A stretch of DNA of 15,654 bases. Source: a virus. The position numbers were made by a program, and so were the translations under genes. The stretch lies in the UHGV virus genome UHGV-1635749, one strand, 5' to 3'. The notes beneath the pieces were generated by a model that did not search any database, had not been told where the DNA came from, and saw only the letters and a list, made by a program, of their open reading frames with translations. Below, piece by piece: positions 193 through 6,570 of this stretch. Numbering within the stretch: position 1 is the stretch's first letter; every line of letters starts with the position of its first letter.

Positions 193-219
193 TTTCTCCT
201 GTTATGAAAACAGGAGAAA
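193..219. promoter_or_regulatory. 27-nt near-perfect palindrome (11-bp arms) overlapping the invertase Shine-Dalgarno sequence
   Basis: tttctcctgtt-atgaa-aacaggagaaa: positions 193-203 are the exact reverse complement of 209-219. The AGGAGA ribosome-binding site of the invertase sits in one arm. Candidate operator or RBS-sequestering hairpin. Confidence 0.35.
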
Positions 220-263
220 CGGCGAAGTATCGCCAGATTTTTGGGGGTTATAAAAAAGGTTCC

Positions 264-449
264 TTACTGAGTAGACACATCTGCCGGCTTAATGAATTTT
301 TTCCCATCATATAACCAGCCGATACCGACACCTCCTTCAGCCAGTACAGCAATGCCATCCGTTGGCTTCCACTCGGATTCCCCATCCCACACGGCGATAT
401 TGACGACAACACCGTTATTTACAACCGCATAAATTTTGTTTTCATTCAT
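264..449 (-). CDS. Small hypothetical protein (61 aa from ATG at 449) in the position usually held by a tail fiber assembly gene
   Basis: ORF MNENKIYAVVNNGVVVNIAVWDGESEWKPTDGIAVLAEGGVGIGWLYDGKKFIKPADVSTQ. Its ATG (447-449) overlaps the tail fiber stop TAA (449-451) by 1 nt. The track's longer form starts at GTG 464. No family recognised. Confidence 0.45.
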   Translation of the reverse strand: MNENKIYAVVNNGVVVNIAVWDGESEWKPTDGIAVLAEGGVGIGWLYDGKKFIKPADVSTQ

Positions 450-1714
450 TACTGATACTCCCACACAATAATATAACCCTGATAACCGTCATTACCTCTG
501 GACGTTGCACTGTTTGCCGGACTGTATTTACCCGTTCCGCCTTTTCCATAAACGCCAATCATGGTCGAAACTGTGCTTTCGAGTCCGACTGCCATATCAT
601 CACCAAGACCAAAAGCTGCACATGACGGGGAGTGAGAAGCAGAGTGAAACAGAAGTCCGGCCCCTGTTGGTGGTGAAGCTTCGGCGGCACTGCCACCTGA
701 GAACGGAGGAACCTGCTGACGTTGTTGTGAGCCTTTGCCGCCCGGACAAACGAGTAATGAACCAAAACTTGTCTGACCGCCATCTCCACCAGAACCACCA
801 GGCCCCGCACCGCCCACACCACCGGCGCCAATCGTTACAGGTACAGATTCAGGAATATCCTGATAATAAAAAGCCTTTCCGTAGGCTCCAGGAGAACCAG
901 CTGCGCTGATGCCACAGTTATTTGAGGCTGTTGCTGATAAATTGCCACTGGCACCACCACCGCCAACGGCTTCCACTATAATTTTCGTTACACCGGGTGA
1001 TTTGTAGTACATCCCAGAAGTACCGAATACCTGCACTCCAAGTAAACGTCCTGAGCCGTCCCCCAGTGTCAGATACTGAAGCATATCAGGAACATTTTCT
1101 TTACTGATAAATTGACGGCCAGCGAGCGTCAGCGCTGATACTGCCGGAACATTTTTACCAGAAAAAAACAGAACCTGATCAGCGTCAGTTTGCGGCCCCA
1201 GCGTGGAAAGTTTTGTCAGCGTATCGCTGAGGGGTTGTTTGTTTTTTAGCGCTTCTATAAGACCAAGGTATGTGAGAATGTCAGCAATAGTCTTTTTCCC
1301 AATAATGTCACGGCCAACAGAAGTTAAATCAGTCTGTGATGCTGTATCAGTTCCAGTGAAATACGGGAGTTTATTTGCACCGGTTGCGAGCCCAGCCAAT
1401 GCCGTCAGCGTGGCATCAAGCGCCTGGAAATCTTTCCCGAAAGCGGTCCCCATTTTGGATATAAACCCGTTCAGGTCTCCATCATCAAGCACATCCAGCC
1501 CGCTTTTGTTGGCGGTGTACTGCGCCAACGCTGCCGCGATAAAGCTGGCTTGCCGAATAGCTTTGTTGACCTGTGCGCTGGATGCTTTACCTGCCGTAAA
1601 CCCTGAAAGCAGAGCCGGAAGTGCTTCCCAGTCAGCTTGTGAGGTGACGTTAGCGTTCGGATCAAGCGCGAAAGGTTTAAAGTTGTTTATTGCCATTAGA
1701 GTATTGTCCCCCAT
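449..1714 (-). CDS. Tail fiber protein (421 aa; alternative ATG at 1696 gives 415 aa)
   Basis: Residues about 95-153 (nt about 1256-1432), ATLTALAGLATGANKLPYFTGTDTASQTDLTSVGRDIIGKKT...YLGL, match the conserved segment I recall in P2 gpH / Mu S / P1 S-type tail fibers. Gly-rich C-terminal half. Follows the gpI-like gene as in P2 (V-W-J-I-H). The ATG at 1696 overlaps the upstream stop by 1 nt. Confidence 0.85.
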   Translation of the reverse strand: MGDNTLMAINNFKPFALDPNANVTSQADWEALPALLSGFTAGKASSAQVNKAIRQASFIAAALAQYTANKSGLDVLDDGDLNGFISKMGTAFGKDFQALDATLTALAGLATGANKLPYFTGTDTASQTDLTSVGRDIIGKKTIADILTYLGLIEALKNKQPLSDTLTKLSTLGPQTDADQVLFFSGKNVPAVSALTLAGRQFISKENVPDMLQYLTLGDGSGRLLGVQVFGTSGMYYKSPGVTKIIVEAVGGGGASGNLSATASNNCGISAAGSPGAYGKAFYYQDIPESVPVTIGAGGVGGAGPGGSGGDGGQTSFGSLLVCPGGKGSQQRQQVPPFSGGSAAEASPPTGAGLLFHSASHSPSCAAFGLGDDMAVGLESTVSTMIGVYGKGGTGKYSPANSATSRGNDGYQGYIIVWEYQ

Positions 1715-2376
1715 GCTCCAACATCGAACCCGCCGATGTATTCGTTATCCATATCAAACCCAAAGAATTTAGAGCCTTCTGACGGTGTTTCTACCGAAGG
1801 CGTTTCAACATCACCGGCCCATACGCCAGCTGATTTAACGGTGAGATAGCCATGTTTGATAGCGGCGATCAGTTCGAGAGACACATCAGAAATATCAGTT
1901 TCAGGGAAAACCCAGACCGAAATCGTCATGTCCTGGTTGTCGACGATCTGCATCCTCAGGCCTGAGCCTGCGGTAGCAGCGTCAAGGATGGGAGGCAGAG
2001 AGTCGTTCCGACCGTCCCAGTTGTTGATAGCGATTTTCGCTTTCAGAATGATGCGGTACGTCTCATCGCTTAGCGTCGTATAGCCAGAATCAGGATCATA
2101 TGGCCCTTGCCAGATGCCCTGGTCATACCCAAGCCCGTCAGTGTCCCAGCTGAAATAAACTCCGCTAATTGGCTGGCTGACTATGCGACTGCGTCCGATC
2201 CACAGACCGAGGATGTCGAGCTGTACACCGACAGCAGTATCGATATCGAAGGCTGTTACAAGCCCTGACATAGTGCTGGACACATCAATCAGCGGGCGGG
2301 TGCTCAGATCTATATGGTCAAAAAAGAGTGGCTTGGTAGCGTGGTAGTTAGTGATCAGTTCGGTGTATTTGCTCAT
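1696..2376 (-). CDS. Baseplate/tail protein, P2 gpI-like (226 aa)
   Basis: Assigned by size and synteny (between the J-like gene and the tail fiber). Its start overlaps the J-like stop (2373-2376). Confidence 0.55.
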   Translation of the reverse strand: MSKYTELITNYHATKPLFFDHIDLSTRPLIDVSSTMSGLVTAFDIDTAVGVQLDILGLWIGRSRIVSQPISGVYFSWDTDGLGYDQGIWQGPYDPDSGYTTLSDETYRIILKAKIAINNWDGRNDSLPPILDAATAGSGLRMQIVDNQDMTISVWVFPETDISDVSLELIAAIKHGYLTVKSAGVWAGDVETPSVETPSEGSKFFGFDMDNEYIGGFDVGAWGTIL

Positions 2377-3572: not shown

Positions 3573-3926
3573 TTATGCCTCGCTTGTTACAGTCGTCTGG
3601 CCGTAGATTGTGTCAATGGAGGAAGTGAAAGTGACGCGGCGGCTGGTGCCGTCATAATTGGTATCGAAGGAAAGAATCGACAGAACGCCCGGTGTATCCT
3701 GTATGCGTTCGCGTATAGCCAGGATGTAGACATCTGATCGCTGCTTCCCAAGCACTGACTGAACATACGGCGTGCCTTCCGTCAGATCGAGAAACCACTG
3801 ACCGCGCCACAGCTCGAAACGGGTTTTTACGGCCTGGGCGACACATTCCGGACTGTCGATAAGGAAAGTATCGTCACCCTGGCCGAAAGTGTAATCGCCT
3901 TCAGTATCTTCGCGACGGTATCGCAT
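3573..3926 (-). CDS. Baseplate wedge protein, gpW/gp25-like (117 aa)
   Basis: About 115-aa ORF sandwiched between the spike and the J-like gene, the canonical gpW position. Its start overlaps the spike stop. Confidence 0.6.
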   Translation of the reverse strand: MRYRREDTEGDYTFGQGDDTFLIDSPECVAQAVKTRFELWRGQWFLDLTEGTPYVQSVLGKQRSDVYILAIRERIQDTPGVLSILSFDTNYDGTSRRVTFTSSIDTIYGQTTVTSEA

Positions 3927-4666
3927 TATTGCGGCCCTCCAGTAGTTCCCCCGCCTGTCTGAACTCCGCCATGTTTATGCGTGGCGACACTTATACCTGA
4001 AGCTGTCACATCATTCGTTACCGTAACCGGCCCAAGCATCGTCGCAGTACCACCACTTTCTCCCATTCCCTGAGACAGGTTACCGTTAATCGTTACGTAG
4101 CCGTTCAGCGTGATAGTCGGGGATGTGATTGTCGTTCCACCTTCAGCCGTAGCCGTAAGCTGGCCCGGCGTTTTAATGGTGATGTTATGTCCTGCAGCGA
4201 CCTCTACGAACGCCGCGCCATCATCGGTTCGCAGCTGCGCGGCGCTGGTACTGATACCGCTGATTTTCTGTGCTTGCGACTGCGGGCCAACGATGGCGAA
4301 CGCATCAGATAAGTCATGCTGGCGCGGGTCGACGGTCTCCTGAACGCCGCCGCTCTGCCACCAAAAATCGATGCAACGGTCAGCAAAAATCAGGAGGCAC
4401 TCGTCGCCTTCTTTTACCGGAAAGGTCAGCGTGCAACCGCCGCCGCGCGGGAAGATGACCGGCACATCCACCAGCGGTTTTAATTCGGTGGAGTCGTCGC
4501 CAACAATACCGCGAAGCGCCACTTCTACTGTGCAGGTTACAGCGTCAGGATCGAACGACTGAATGATGCCAGGCATCGCCACGCGCATTTGGGTAGACAC
4601 TGAATCGGCAATGGCCTGGGCGGTCTGCTGCTCGCCGCCGATCTGTGATTGAGTTGGAATTGGCAT
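3926..4666 (-). CDS. Baseplate central spike, P2 gpV-like (246 aa from ATG at 4666)
   Basis: The C-terminus ...SVATHKHGGVQTGGGTTGGPQ resembles the P2 gpV C-terminal HTHKH...GGTTGSP motif as I recall it. The ATG at 4664-4666 follows the terminator T-tract with GGGG upstream. The track's longer ORF (to 4840) would read through the terminator and the cassette's 3' end. Confidence 0.75.
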   Translation of the reverse strand: MPIPTQSQIGGEQQTAQAIADSVSTQMRVAMPGIIQSFDPDAVTCTVEVALRGIVGDDSTELKPLVDVPVIFPRGGGCTLTFPVKEGDECLLIFADRCIDFWWQSGGVQETVDPRQHDLSDAFAIVGPQSQAQKISGISTSAAQLRTDDGAAFVEVAAGHNITIKTPGQLTATAEGGTTITSPTITLNGYVTINGNLSQGMGESGGTATMLGPVTVTNDVTASGISVATHKHGGVQTGGGTTGGPQ

Positions 4667-4675
4667 AAAAACCCC

Positions 4676-4702
4676 ATAAAAAAACCCGCTCGGTGGCGGG
4701 TT
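4676..4702 (-). terminator. Rho-independent terminator closing the AT-rich cassette
   Basis: On the minus strand: AACCCGC-CACCGA-GCGGGTT (7-bp stem, 5 GC pairs) followed by UUUUUAUGGGGUUUUU. The stem overlaps the stop codon of the 145-aa ORF; the U-tract runs straight into the spike ATG. Confidence 0.55.
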
Positions 4703-5138
4703 ATAATTTTGCTTCTGGATAACATCTACAGCGACCATCAGGACAACACTTTCCCTCTCCGGGATGACCACTTTTAGGCGGCTTACTCCACGAAAATGTT
4801 TTCCCATTATTTTTAGCGCATTCTGCACACTCGTCACCATCCTCGCAGGAGCGCCAAATATAACGTTTAATACCCAAGCGAGATTGCTTTATCCTCTCTG
4901 CCTCAGAGTGACGACGGCTATTTTCGGCGAGGTGTTCAGCATAGCGCGCGTTATCCTTCTCAATTTCTTCTTTACTTCGCCGCTTCCCATTTGCTGGCTT
5001 TGATTTTTGGTAAGCAACCCGTTTATTTCGATTGTATGATTTAATAATTTCGTCTTCATTTCTACGCTTTTTAAATTTTAAATATTTAACAAATGCAAAA
5101 ACAATTACGAATAAAATAATAATATATGCAGGTTCCAT
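4701..5138 (-). CDS. Membrane-anchored, basic, Cys-rich hypothetical protein (145 aa) in the AT-rich cassette
   Basis: N-terminal hydrophobic helix AYIIILFVIVFAFVKYL followed by KFKKRR (positive-inside). Lys/Arg/Glu-rich middle. C-terminal CEDGDECAEC...GKTF...HPGEGKCCPDGRCRC putative metal-binding motif. ATG overlaps the upstream stop (TAATG at 5136-5140). Strongly AT-rich codons. Confidence 0.55.
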   Translation of the reverse strand: MEPAYIIILFVIVFAFVKYLKFKKRRNEDEIIKSYNRNKRVAYQKSKPANGKRRSKEEIEKDNARYAEHLAENSRRHSEAERIKQSRLGIKRYIWRSCEDGDECAECAKNNGKTFSWSKPPKSGHPGEGKCCPDGRCRCYPEAKL

Positions 5139-5506
5139 TATTTAACCTTTACGCAATCATAAGTTGCATATTGTCTTGGTGCATCCATGCTGGCTTGCAG
5201 CCACTGAGCATTGAGGATAGCTTTTCCGTTTCGCTTGATGTACTCAAGACCAACCCATCGCCCCGGTTGGTTTGTAGCCATACGCCAATCCATTTTTATA
5301 TTTTCGTAGTCTTCTTTTTGTTTCAGAAATGTCAATTTCTGATACTCGGGCTTTGCTCCATTTATGCGAGGAAAGCCGTCATTAGTACCACTCGTTGAGA
5401 AAGTGAAATCACCGCACTTCATATAGACTTTTCCTGCTGCATTTGCACCGGCAGCAGCTGTTAAGCAAATTAAGCCAGAAAATATTCCTGAGATTATCCT
5501 TTTCAT
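5138..5506 (-). CDS. Secreted (Sec signal peptide) hypothetical protein (122 aa) in the AT-rich cassette
   Basis: N-terminus MKRIISGIFSGLICLTAAAGANA-AGK has a basic n-region, hydrophobic core and ANA-A cleavage-type site, with no canonical lipobox. Two Cys in the mature part. ATG (5504-5506) overlaps the hub stop TAA (5506-5508). Confidence 0.6.
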   Translation of the reverse strand: MKRIISGIFSGLICLTAAAGANAAGKVYMKCGDFTFSTSGTNDGFPRINGAKPEYQKLTFLKQKEDYENIKMDWRMATNQPGRWVGLEYIKRNGKAILNAQWLQASMDAPRQYATYDCVKVK

Positions 5507-6570
5507 TAGGCACCCGTTTTCATCAAAGTCGAATCATTAATCAGGGTAGAAGCTCCACGCGCAAAACACATCAAATCCATGTACCACGCTTGACCTCTAG
5601 TGTCACCAGTATAGTCGATAGCCTTGACGATATAAACGCCATCTGTCGCAATGCTGGCAGCCTGTGACGTCGTGCCGGTCAGCACACGGTTGCCGTTCTC
5701 TTCTGTTTCGGTGATACGCCCGGGCGACTGTGCGATTTCGCTATTGCCGAGCGCGGCGCGGTACACCGAAGCCTGATCGAGCTGGATAAGACCATTAATG
5801 CGGATGTTCGGGTTTATCAGGCACCGCACGTTTACGCCGCCGCCCATCGTCTGTTGCGGCATACCGATCAGGCCAGTATCAGCATTCAACACAATGGCTT
5901 CGTGAATATATTTATCCTCCGGCACCATCTGGACATGACCATCCACCAGTTGCCATGTCGCTTTGCACTGCGCAGCAATATTATCCATCACGTTGCGGCT
6001 GGATGAGTAAATCGCGCGGCCACGAGGAAACACGGTATCAGGAAAATCGCCGGTAATGCCCTGTGTCACGCCGAACGCGTTGAAATCCTGCATCGTCGCC
6101 CGGTGCAGATCCGCAACGGTATAGCCAGCGGCAAGCGTGGTGATGGTAGTCGCGTAGAGGAACGCTTCGTGGTTACTGATGGCCTGAATCAGCACCCAGG
6201 AATCCGTAATGTTGTCCTTCCCGGTGACGGTGAAGCGAATATCACCGTCAAATATCAGGCCGTAGTTCTGACCGTTCACCTGCCCTACCTGGTCTGGTGA
6301 AATCTCCCGGGCGACACCAACCTGGCTCGCATCAACATCCGGCGCAATACCGTCATACCCGGCAATGATGCGAATTTTTGCAAACTCCTGCCCCAGTATC
6401 TTGTTCGTGGTATCGGTCGAAAGGTTGTAAATTTTCACGTTTGCCACGCGCGGCCAGCGTGTATCTGCCCACTCGATCTGGAACGTGACCTTAAAATCAG
6501 ACAGGGAAATACCCTGCCCGTTCTGGTCCAACAGCTGCAACTCAAAATGGCGCATCCAGTTAAGAGACAT
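5506..6570 (-). CDS. Putative baseplate hub protein (P2 gpD / Mu gpP position; 354 aa)
   Basis: Size and position downstream of the tape measure gene and upstream of the spike/wedge genes. AGGAG 6 nt upstream of the ATG at 6570. Assigned by synteny only. Confidence 0.5.
   Translation of the reverse strand: MSLNWMRHFELQLLDQNGQGISLSDFKVTFQIEWADTRWPRVANVKIYNLSTDTTNKILGQEFAKIRIIAGYDGIAPDVDASQVGVAREISPDQVGQVNGQNYGLIFDGDIRFTVTGKDNITDSWVLIQAISNHEAFLYATTITTLAAGYTVADLHRATMQDFNAFGVTQGITGDFPDTVFPRGRAIYSSSRNVMDNIAAQCKATWQLVDGHVQMVPEDKYIHEAIVLNADTGLIGMPQQTMGGGVNVRCLINPNIRINGLIQLDQASVYRAALGNSEIAQSPGRITETEENGNRVLTGTTSQAASIATDGVYIVKAIDYTGDTRGQAWYMDLMCFARGASTLINDSTLMKTGA

What the first reader, a model, noticed from the sequence alone, without database searches (positions are those of the whole stretch)
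449..1714. Mosaic tail fiber: short unique N-terminus, conserved P2 H-like junction motif, Gly-rich C-terminal domain
Only about 95 residues precede the ATLTALAGLAT...PYFTG...VGRDI block, which I recall as the constant/variable boundary of P2 H, Mu S and P1 S-type fibers. The C-terminal 250 residues are Gly/Ser/Ala-rich (GAGGVGGAGPGGSGGDGGQ) with no G-X-Y periodicity and end ...GYQGYIIVWEYQ. That is an unusual receptor-binding region, and the conserved block is the natural crossover point for host-range module exchange.
Basis: partly seen in the sequence, partly recalled or inferred. Interest (0 to 1): 0.4.

Follow-up and report, generated by a model that had tools for sequence, protein, structure and literature searches.

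The report
Mosaic prophage tail fibre, Pam3-type tip
This is an ordinary but neatly modular prophage tail-fibre gene: a baseplate-docking head, a P1/P2-type connector ending in a DNA-invertase crossover site, and a glycine-rich receptor-binding tip of an already solved type (cyanophage Pam3 gp24), followed by a miniature chaperone gene.

Summary
The ORF is real. It lies on the minus strand (1714..449); the likely start is M7 at 1696, giving 415 aa.

The connector block is nearly identical to P1 S and clearly related to P2 H. It is absent from Mu S and from e14 StfP/StfE.

The exchange point is not the block itself. It is a 26-bp Din-invertase (cix/pix-like) site just 3' of it (1253-1278, encoding YLGL). 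Most of the 60 E. coli prophage matches listed lose homology there. The same tip module starts there on Pam3-like and e14/Mu-like backbones, and after the same LGL junction in P2-like fibres.

A Pin-like invertase gene follows. However, the window has no second site and no alternative tip, both of which the relative L006 has. The fibre therefore appears locked.

Verdict: a new member of a known kind, of low to moderate interest.

The parts
449..1696 (-). Tail-fibre CDS, 415 aa plus stop. The longest ORF extends to an ATG at 1714 (421 aa).
   Evidence: TAATG overlap with the upstream gene read
1430..1696 (-). N-terminal domain (residues 7-95), inferred to dock on the baseplate. It is conserved in fibres of phages and prophages with a Pam3-like baseplate.
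   Evidence: tblastn hits confined to residues 1-71/96/152 in many phages; 95-98% DNA identity in E. coli prophages; role inferred from Pam3 gp24 (PMC9608196)
1256..1429 (-). Connector block 1 (residues 96-153), P1 S / P2 H type: LDATLTALAGLATGANKLPYFTGTDTASQTDLTSVGRDI...YLGL.
   Evidence: blastp against P1 S (E 2e-27) and P2 H (E 6e-22); tblastn to the P1/P7 Sc/Sv boundary
1253..1278 (-). Din-family (cix/pix-like) crossover site, TTCTCACATACC TT GGTCTTATAGAA, encoding LTYLGLIE. Constant/variable boundary of the fibre.
   Evidence: 20/26 identity to P1 cixR (hand count); only match in the window, 0.03 expected by chance; homology breakpoints of E. coli prophages fall here
1064..1249 (-). Connector block 2 (residues 156-217). 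A degenerate tandem copy of block 1 and the first part of the mobile tip module.
   Evidence: 38% identity to block 1, E 4e-11; 36% identity to P2 H 318-387; present in the same module on other backbones
452..1051 (-). TNF-like beta-sandwich plus glycine-rich domain (residues 222-421). Pfam PF21722; Pam3 gp24-type receptor-binding tip.
264..449 (-). 61-aa ORF: single-domain tail-fibre chaperone homologue (gp25 N-domain type). Its start overlaps the fibre stop (ATGA... TAATG arrangement).
248..273 (-). Remnant of the invertase-proximal crossover site. Only the outer half (AA CCTTTTTTATAA) is kept; the inner half is replaced by the end of the 61-aa ORF.
   Evidence: comparison with L003 and L006 site 2, TTC(T/C)CCAAACC AA CCTTTTTTATAA; no second Din-type site found with up to 2 mismatches
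193..219 (.). 27-bp palindrome TTTCTCCTGTT-N5-AACAGGAGAAA overlapping the invertase ribosome-binding site. Corresponds to the IR3 repeats annotated upstream of pinL in phage phi80.
1..188 (-). 5' part (62 codons) of a Pin-like serine DNA invertase gene, cut by the contig end.
   Evidence: 98.5% DNA identity to the HK225 invertase and 95% to phi80 pinL; resolvase-type NCBIfam hits; 61% identity to e14 PinE

Best explanation
The gene encodes the single tail fibre of a temperate enterobacterial myophage with a Pam3/E217-type minimal baseplate. It has four modules:
1. A roughly 90-residue N-terminal domain, inferred to dock on the wedge proteins (Baseplate_J and DUF2612/Phage_Wedge1).
2. A P1 S / P2 H-type connector block that ends in a 26-bp Din-invertase crossover site encoding YLGL.
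3. A second, degenerate copy of that block.
4. A TNF-like beta-sandwich from which glycine-rich loops extend to form the distal receptor-binding tip, as in Pam3 gp24.

By analogy, the conserved glycine stems form the scaffold and the variable inter-stem loops contact the receptor. The receptor is most likely LPS or another surface glycan.

The 61-aa gene downstream encodes a one-domain version of the gp25-type chaperone, which would cover the tip during folding.

Modules 3 and 4 plus the chaperone gene form one mobile cassette. The cassette starts at the crossover site on Pam3-like and e14/Mu-like backbones and after the same LGL junction in P2-like fibres. In close relatives it is one arm of a Pin-invertible switch whose other arm is a gp53-like tip with a Caudo_TAP chaperone. 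In this window the second arm and the inner half of the second site are missing, so the fibre is most likely fixed in the glycine-rich state.

Shown here: sequence and fold membership, the junction position, the cassette distribution, and the absence of a second site. Inferred: trimer formation, receptor identity, chaperone action, loss of inversion.
For: Context: the Pfam hits are Pam3_gp18, Dit_like, E217_GP41, Baseplate_J and DUF2612/Phage_Wedge1.

Fibre identity: PHROG tail-fibre families.

Tip:
- PF21722 above threshold; relatives 87-96% identical also match it.
- Glycine stems invariant and intervening segments variable across 43 homologues.
- The domain ends at the protein C-terminus in nearly all of the 150 representatives listed.

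Chaperone.

Junction: the P1 cixR annotation coincides with residues about 147-153. It is the only Din-type site in the window. About 46 of the 60 listed E. coli rows end at query positions 450-475, which is window 1265-1240. The same cassette follows this site on the e14/Mu-like backbone L026, and the same LGL junction precedes it in the P2-like fibres L018 and L019, where only the protein was read.

Invertible relatives: L006 carries a 98% identical fibre, a 70-aa ORF, an inverted Caudo_TAP gene, an inverted Gp53-like_C tip and a resolvase. The window lacks those 778 bp.

Function of the family: Pam3 gp24-gp25 structure (PMC9608196); gp24 homologues of Klebsiella phages bind LPS and trigger DNA ejection (PMC12671077).
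Against: - The whole protein gives no Pfam, NCBIfam or PDB sequence hit. Membership rests on the isolated domain, on close relatives and on a monomeric AF2 model of moderate confidence (pLDDT 73.8, with poor regions at model residues 206-223).
- Sequence identity to Pam3 gp24 is only about 25% in the structural alignment.
- No cultured phage in the 50,697-record collection carries this tip, so no receptor data apply directly.
- The chaperone lacks the C-terminal helical domain that the Pam3 paper holds responsible for trimerisation, so the assembly mechanism may differ.
- The window ends inside the invertase gene, so a partner site further downstream cannot be excluded.
Confidence: 0.8

Rival explanations
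1. The locus is still an active invertase switch. Pin would invert the roughly 1-kb segment between the site at 1253-1278 and the degenerate site at 248-273, or a site beyond the contig end. This would turn the fibre tip off or exchange it.
For: An intact crossover site lies in the fibre gene and an invertase gene with an intact 5' end lies directly downstream. Close relatives have complete invertible segments.
Against: No second Din-type site is found in 15.6 kb, even allowing 2 mismatches. The inner half of site 2 is replaced by ORF sequence. Inversion at 248-273 would fuse the constant part to ...YLPY-stop, giving a tipless fibre (read). No alternative tip ORF exists in the segment. Three independent metagenome contigs all show the same orientation. 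In L006 the invertase is the last prophage gene before host bio genes.
Confidence: 0.1
2. The Gly/Ser/Ala-rich C-terminus is a low-complexity, collagen-like or disordered spacer rather than a folded binding domain.
For: High Gly content. The only PDB sequence hits are scFv Gly-Ser linkers. A short run of six G-x-x triplets occurs.
Against: There is no overall triplet periodicity. 35 columns are invariant, including C, W, E, Y and F residues. Beta strands are predicted with pLDDT above 90. Fold matches to solved fibre tips are strong. A Pfam domain is matched.
Confidence: 0.03
3. The 61-aa protein is not a transient chaperone. It would be a permanent distal component of the fibre, acting as a cap or co-adhesin in the way gp38 sits on T4-like/S16 fibres.
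For: It lacks the C-terminal domain thought to drive trimerisation and release. It co-travels strictly with the tip module on three backbones.
Against: Its fold matches the fibre-binding domain of chaperones that are released (Pam3 gp25, Mu Tfa). In Pam3 this domain masks the receptor-binding loops (PMC9608196). There is no fold similarity to the gp38 adhesin.
Confidence: 0.1

Closest known systems
Cyanophage Pam3 tail fibre gp24 with chaperone gp25 (PDB 7YPX/7YFW; PMC9608196, PMC9942802)
   Same: - Same gene order after a minimal baseplate: Pam3_gp18 plug, Baseplate_J, wedge, fibre, chaperone.
   Different: - The fibre here is 415 aa against 250 aa. It carries a different N-terminal domain and two P1/P2-type connector blocks.
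- The chaperone is 61 aa against 162 aa and lacks the trimerising helical domain.
- The host is enterobacterial, and an invertase crossover site is embedded in the gene.
Phage P1 gene S (Sc/Sv with cixR, Cin) and P2 gene H
   Same: The connector block is nearly identical to P1 S 401-440 and about 60% identical to P2 H 320-378. The crossover site is 20/26 identical to P1 cixR and lies at the same position, encoding YLGL.
   Different: P1 S and P2 H have several hundred extra N-terminal residues with Phage_fiber_2-type repeats, and unrelated tips with full-length Tfa (U/G) chaperones. P1 has both cix sites and an alternative Sv'/U' arm.
e14 P-segment (StfP/StfE, TfaP/TfaE, PinE) and the Mu G-segment (S/S', U/U', Gin)
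   Same: A serine invertase follows the fibre module (61% identity to PinE over 62 aa). The crossover site lies in the LGL codons. The e14 site inner half, GGTTTGGGAGAA, matches 11 of 12 bases of the site-1 inner half in relative L003 (GGTTTGGGAGAT) and is the exact reverse complement of L003's site-2 inner half (TTCTCCCAAACC).
   Different: Neither StfP/StfE nor Mu S has the ATLTALAGL...VGRDI block. The window has only one arm and one intact site, so it does not qualify as an invertible segment.
Mycobacteriophage Bxb1 gp33 'tail wing brush' (PDB 9D93) and the ALK/LTK glycine-rich domain (7LIR, 7LRZ)
   Different: Different virion position (siphophage tail-tip accessory protein) or a eukaryotic receptor ectodomain. 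There is no evidence of shared ligand type.
Klebsiella phage SCNJ1-Y TFP_Y (PMC12671077), a gp24 homologue
   Same: Enterobacterial fibre with a TNF-like plus glycine-rich tip. Shown to interact with LPS and trigger DNA ejection, with host-range mutations inside the glycine-rich domain.
   Different: Not compared directly by sequence here. It has a different N-terminus and no invertase context is reported.

Membership tests
Pfam PF21722 Gly_rich_2 / Pam3 gp24-type fibre tip | HMM score above the curated gathering threshold | tested here: met
   Residues 215-421 alone score 39.2 bits (E 1e-9) against a cutoff of 24.3. The full-length protein returned nothing, probably because of HMMER's filters. 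Relatives 87-96% identical score 34-38 bits.
Pfam PF21722 Gly_rich_2 / Pam3 gp24-type fibre tip | TNF-like beta-sandwich with glycine-rich loops extending from it (fold) | tested here: met
Pfam PF21722 Gly_rich_2 / Pam3 gp24-type fibre tip | Trimeric assembly and a polyglycine-II-like hydrogen-bonded lattice | not testable with these tools
   Only monomer prediction is available and coordinates are not returned.
Pfam PF21722 Gly_rich_2 / Pam3 gp24-type fibre tip | Cognate chaperone encoded immediately downstream, with a gp25-like fibre-binding domain | tested here: met
Pfam PF21722 Gly_rich_2 / Pam3 gp24-type fibre tip | Chaperone C-terminal alpha-helical trimerisation domain | tested here: not met
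   The ORF ends after 61 aa. Forms of 59-70 aa are the rule in 26 homologues. The two-domain form exists in L003.
P1 S / P2 H-type fibre constant-region block | Presence of the LDATLTALAGLAT..PYFTG..VGRDI block upstream of the variable part | tested here: met
   blastp against P1 S E 2e-27 and P2 H E 6e-22. The block is absent from Mu S and from e14 StfP/StfE.
Din-family invertible tail-fibre segment (Mu G, P1 C, e14 P) | 26-bp crossover site inside the fibre gene at the constant/variable boundary | tested here: met
   Site at 1253-1278, 20/26 identical to P1 cixR, with 0.03 matches expected by chance.
Din-family invertible tail-fibre segment (Mu G, P1 C, e14 P) | Serine invertase gene adjacent to the segment | tested here: met
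   The 5' 62 codons are present; 61% identity to PinE and 98.5% DNA identity to the HK225 invertase. The gene is truncated by the contig end, so its intactness is unknown.
Din-family invertible tail-fibre segment (Mu G, P1 C, e14 P) | Second crossover site in inverted orientation | tested here: not met
   There is only one site in the window with up to 2 mismatches. At 248-273 only the outer half remains.
Din-family invertible tail-fibre segment (Mu G, P1 C, e14 P) | Alternative tip (Sv') and chaperone (U') on the opposite strand | tested here: not met
   No such ORFs lie between 188 and 1253. The 778 bp that carry them in L006 are absent.
Din-family invertible tail-fibre segment (Mu G, P1 C, e14 P) | Fis-dependent enhancer in the invertase 5' coding region | not tested
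   Not examined.
Collagen-like / G-X-Y fibre | Sustained Gly every third residue | tested here: not met
   Gly counts by phase are 16/13/16; the longest run is 6 triplets.
T4/S16 gp38-type polyglycine adhesin | Fold match to the S16 gp38 PGII sandwich (6F45) | tested here: inconclusive

The most novel reading that the evidence does not exclude
The intact crossover site retained in the fibre gene, together with a resident Pin-type invertase, could serve as a docking point for capturing whole tip-plus-chaperone cassettes from co-resident prophages by site-specific recombination. That would explain why the same cassette begins at this site on Pam3-like and e14/Mu-like tails and after the same LGL junction on P2-like tails. 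Separately, the one-domain 61-aa chaperone could represent a distinct assembly route for glycine-rich tips, in which trimerisation is supplied by the duplicated connector block instead of by the chaperone.
Probability: 0.2. Interest if true: 0.5.

Novelty: new member of a known kind. Interest (0 to 1): 0.25.

Why it matters
The locus is a clean natural example of how host-range modules are built and exchanged. A Pam3-type glycine-rich tip and its mini-chaperone form a cassette bounded by a 26-bp invertase site, and the cassette has been placed on three unrelated myophage tail backbones.

For phage engineering, this gives a precise, naturally validated splice point: the YLGL codons at 1253-1278. 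It also gives a compact module of about 1 kb (tip plus 61-aa chaperone) for retargeting P2-, Mu- or Pam3-like tails and tailocins.

It does not reveal a new kind of receptor-binding domain.

Tried and rejected
- The plus-strand reading of 449-1714 is all stops.
- Whole-protein scans against Pfam and NCBIfam, and sequence searches of the PDB, gave no real hit. The only hits were scFv Gly-Ser linkers and, with a profile, leucine-rich-repeat proteins at E about 0.06. Both are judged spurious.
- tblastn against 50,697 phage records found only N-terminal and connector matches. No isolate carries this tip.
- I considered that the window arose from an L006-like ancestor by invertase-mediated deletion ending at the centre of site 2. 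Homology does resume exactly at the central AA. However, the 61-aa ORF ending (...ADVSTQ) and the sequence TAAGGAACNTTT are the native right end of the cassette in invertase-free Pam3-like and P2-like prophages. A simple deletion is therefore not demonstrated and the junction mechanism is left open.
- The 23-bp junction sequence occurs only in copies of this same arrangement.
- Searching E. coli genomes for an inverted copy of this exact cassette next to the same constant part found none. It did find the cassette on an e14/Mu-like prophage instead.
- Antisense ORFs 505-909(+) and 1203-1772(+) were not followed up. They were set aside because they lie wholly antisense to the well-supported fibre CDS.

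Full report
**1. What is there**

The 421-codon ORF at 449..1714 lies on the minus strand; the plus strand is closed by stops. It is the last structural gene of a minus-strand tail and baseplate cluster. The cluster comprises:
- a tape-measure protein with an SLT domain
- Dit_like
- the Pam3_gp18 plug
- an E217_GP41-like hub
- a gpV-type spike
- a sheath initiator
- Baseplate_J
- DUF2612/Phage_Wedge1

This is a Pam3/E217-type minimal myophage baseplate.

The probable start is M7. Its ATG at 1696 makes a TAATG overlap with the DUF2612 stop codon, and gene callers give 415 aa. PHROG profiles identify the protein as a tail fibre, with E down to 2e-86.

**2. The connector block and the real junction**

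Residues 98-154 are almost identical to P1 S residues 401-458 and clearly homologous to P2 H residues 320-378. In the P1 record, the cixR site and its crossover point lie at the position corresponding to window residues about 147-153.

The window DNA there reads TTCTCACATACC TT GGTCTTATAGAA (1278..1253, minus strand). P1 cixR reads TTATCCAATACC TT GGTTTAAGAGAA. A degenerate Din-type palindrome pattern finds this one site in 15.6 kb, even allowing two mismatches, against 0.03 expected by chance.

Homology with E. coli prophages stops here. About 46 of the 60 listed matches to the 5' part of the gene end at query positions 450-475, equivalent to window 1265-1240. Beyond that point their annotated proteins are variously gp53-like, glycine-rich or other tail-fibre proteins.

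Mu S and e14 StfP/StfE do not contain the ATLTALAGL...VGRDI block. They share only the LGL junction encoded by their gix or pix site.

The exchange point, however, is the invertase site immediately after it.

**3. A second copy of the block belongs to the mobile part**

Residues 157-217 are a degenerate repeat of residues 94-152 (38% identity, E 4e-11). They align to P2 H 318-387.

This copy, the tip domain and the downstream small ORF together form one cassette. Its DNA begins right at the crossover site on an e14/Mu-like backbone (L026; 90% DNA identity). In the fibres of P2-like prophages (L018, L019) the same cassette sequence begins directly after the LGL junction; there only the protein was read. 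The cassette also sits in invertase-free Pam3-like prophages of Citrobacter.

**4. The glycine-rich C-terminus**

- Scanned alone, residues 215-421 score 39.2 bits on Pfam PF21722 Gly_rich_2, against a cutoff of 24.3. Relatives 87-96% identical also match.
- HMMER against 1.84 billion representatives finds 1433 clusters at E <= 1e-3. In nearly all of the 150 listed, the domain ends at the protein C-terminus.
- BFVD holds 232 viral matches at E <= 1e-3, many of them named glycine-rich domain or tail fibre proteins.
- Glycine stems and several aromatic, Cys and Glu positions are invariant. The intervening segments vary. The Pam3 paper describes the same pattern of a conserved stem and a variable distal tip (PMC9608196).
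- There is no collagen-like periodicity.
- gp24 homologues in Klebsiella phages bind LPS and trigger DNA ejection (PMC12671077). A surface-glycan or LPS receptor is therefore the best inference here, but it is untested.

**5. The downstream 61-aa ORF (449..264)**

- It is 41% identical (E 1e-12) to the N-terminal part of a 137-aa protein that follows a glycine-rich tip in E. coli EH09-18-41. The C-terminal part of that protein is Caudo_TAP.
- It is therefore a one-domain version of the fibre chaperone. It keeps the fibre-binding beta-sandwich and lacks the helical trimerisation domain.
- Homologues are all 59-70 aa long, so the short form is natural and not a truncation specific to this window.

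**6. Invertase context**

A Pin-like serine invertase gene starts at 188 and runs off the contig.

The closest relative with a long contig is L006, whose fibre is 98% identical. Between the small ORF and the invertase it carries an inverted Caudo_TAP gene, an inverted Gp53-like_C tip and a second site, TGTTCCCAAACC AA CCTTTTTTATAA. Read from the sequence, inversion would fuse in frame to give ...YLGLGT....

The window lacks those 778 bp. It retains only the outer half of the second site (248-259), with the central AA at 260-261. The fibre is therefore most likely fixed in the glycine-rich state.

How the junction arose is unresolved. The cassette's native right end, TAAGGAACNTTT, overlaps the outer half-site by 7 bp.

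**7. Verdict**

It is wrong that the tip is unusual, and imprecise about where the crossover lies. This is a new member of known kinds, namely a Pam3 gp24/gp25-type tip module and a Din-invertase fibre junction. Its minor points of interest are the duplicated connector, the mini-chaperone and the cassette's presence on three tail backbones.

Noticed in passing
window 4701-5506 (minus strand): Two small genes sit between the baseplate hub (5506-6570) and the spike. One is a 145-aa protein with an N-terminal hydrophobic (probably transmembrane) stretch and a Cys-rich C-terminus that weakly resembles Phage_Mu_F (25.1 bits, below the 29.6 cutoff). The other is a 122-aa protein with a signal-peptide-like N-terminus and no family hit. 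Relatives (L006) carry different genes in this slot: a 114-aa ORF and an opposite-strand DUF4236 gene. It looks like a variable 'moron' slot inside the tail cluster.
   Followed up: partly
window 193-219: A 27-bp perfect-arm palindrome, TTTCTCCTGTT-N5-AACAGGAGAAA, overlaps the invertase Shine-Dalgarno sequence. It is conserved upstream of the same invertase in phi80 (annotated IR3), HK225, L003, L005 and L006. It could sequester the ribosome-binding site or bind a regulator.
   Followed up: no
window 252-266; loci L018-L023 just after the 61-aa ORF: The tip cassette ends with the same short sequence, TAAGGAACNTTT, in P2-like, Pam3-like and invertase-linked contexts. After it the flanks diverge completely. 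In the window it overlaps the outer half of the invertase-proximal site by 7 bp (AACCTTT). It may be a recombination scar or a quasi-site.
   Followed up: partly
window 3926-4840 (minus strand): The spike ORF (gpV-type N-domain plus Apex motif) can be read as 304 aa from the first ATG. Gene callers give 270 aa and relatives are 246 aa. The 5' extension overlaps the preceding 145-aa gene, so the true start is probably internal.
   Followed up: no
L004 and L026 (E. coli AW1.7 chromosome): One strain carries the same glycine-rich tip cassette twice, on two different prophages. One is Pam3-like and aligns to window 2400-286, which includes the baseplate genes and the cassette, at about 81% DNA identity. 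The other is e14/Mu-like, with the cassette at about 90% DNA identity. This gives an opportunity for tip exchange within a single cell.
   Followed up: partly
window 1064-1080 (residues 212-222): The end of connector block 2 reads QYLTLGDGSGR. This resembles the constant/variable junction YLGLGDTSGY of relative L003, where a glycine-rich tip follows the crossover site directly. It may be a decayed former crossover site.
   Followed up: no
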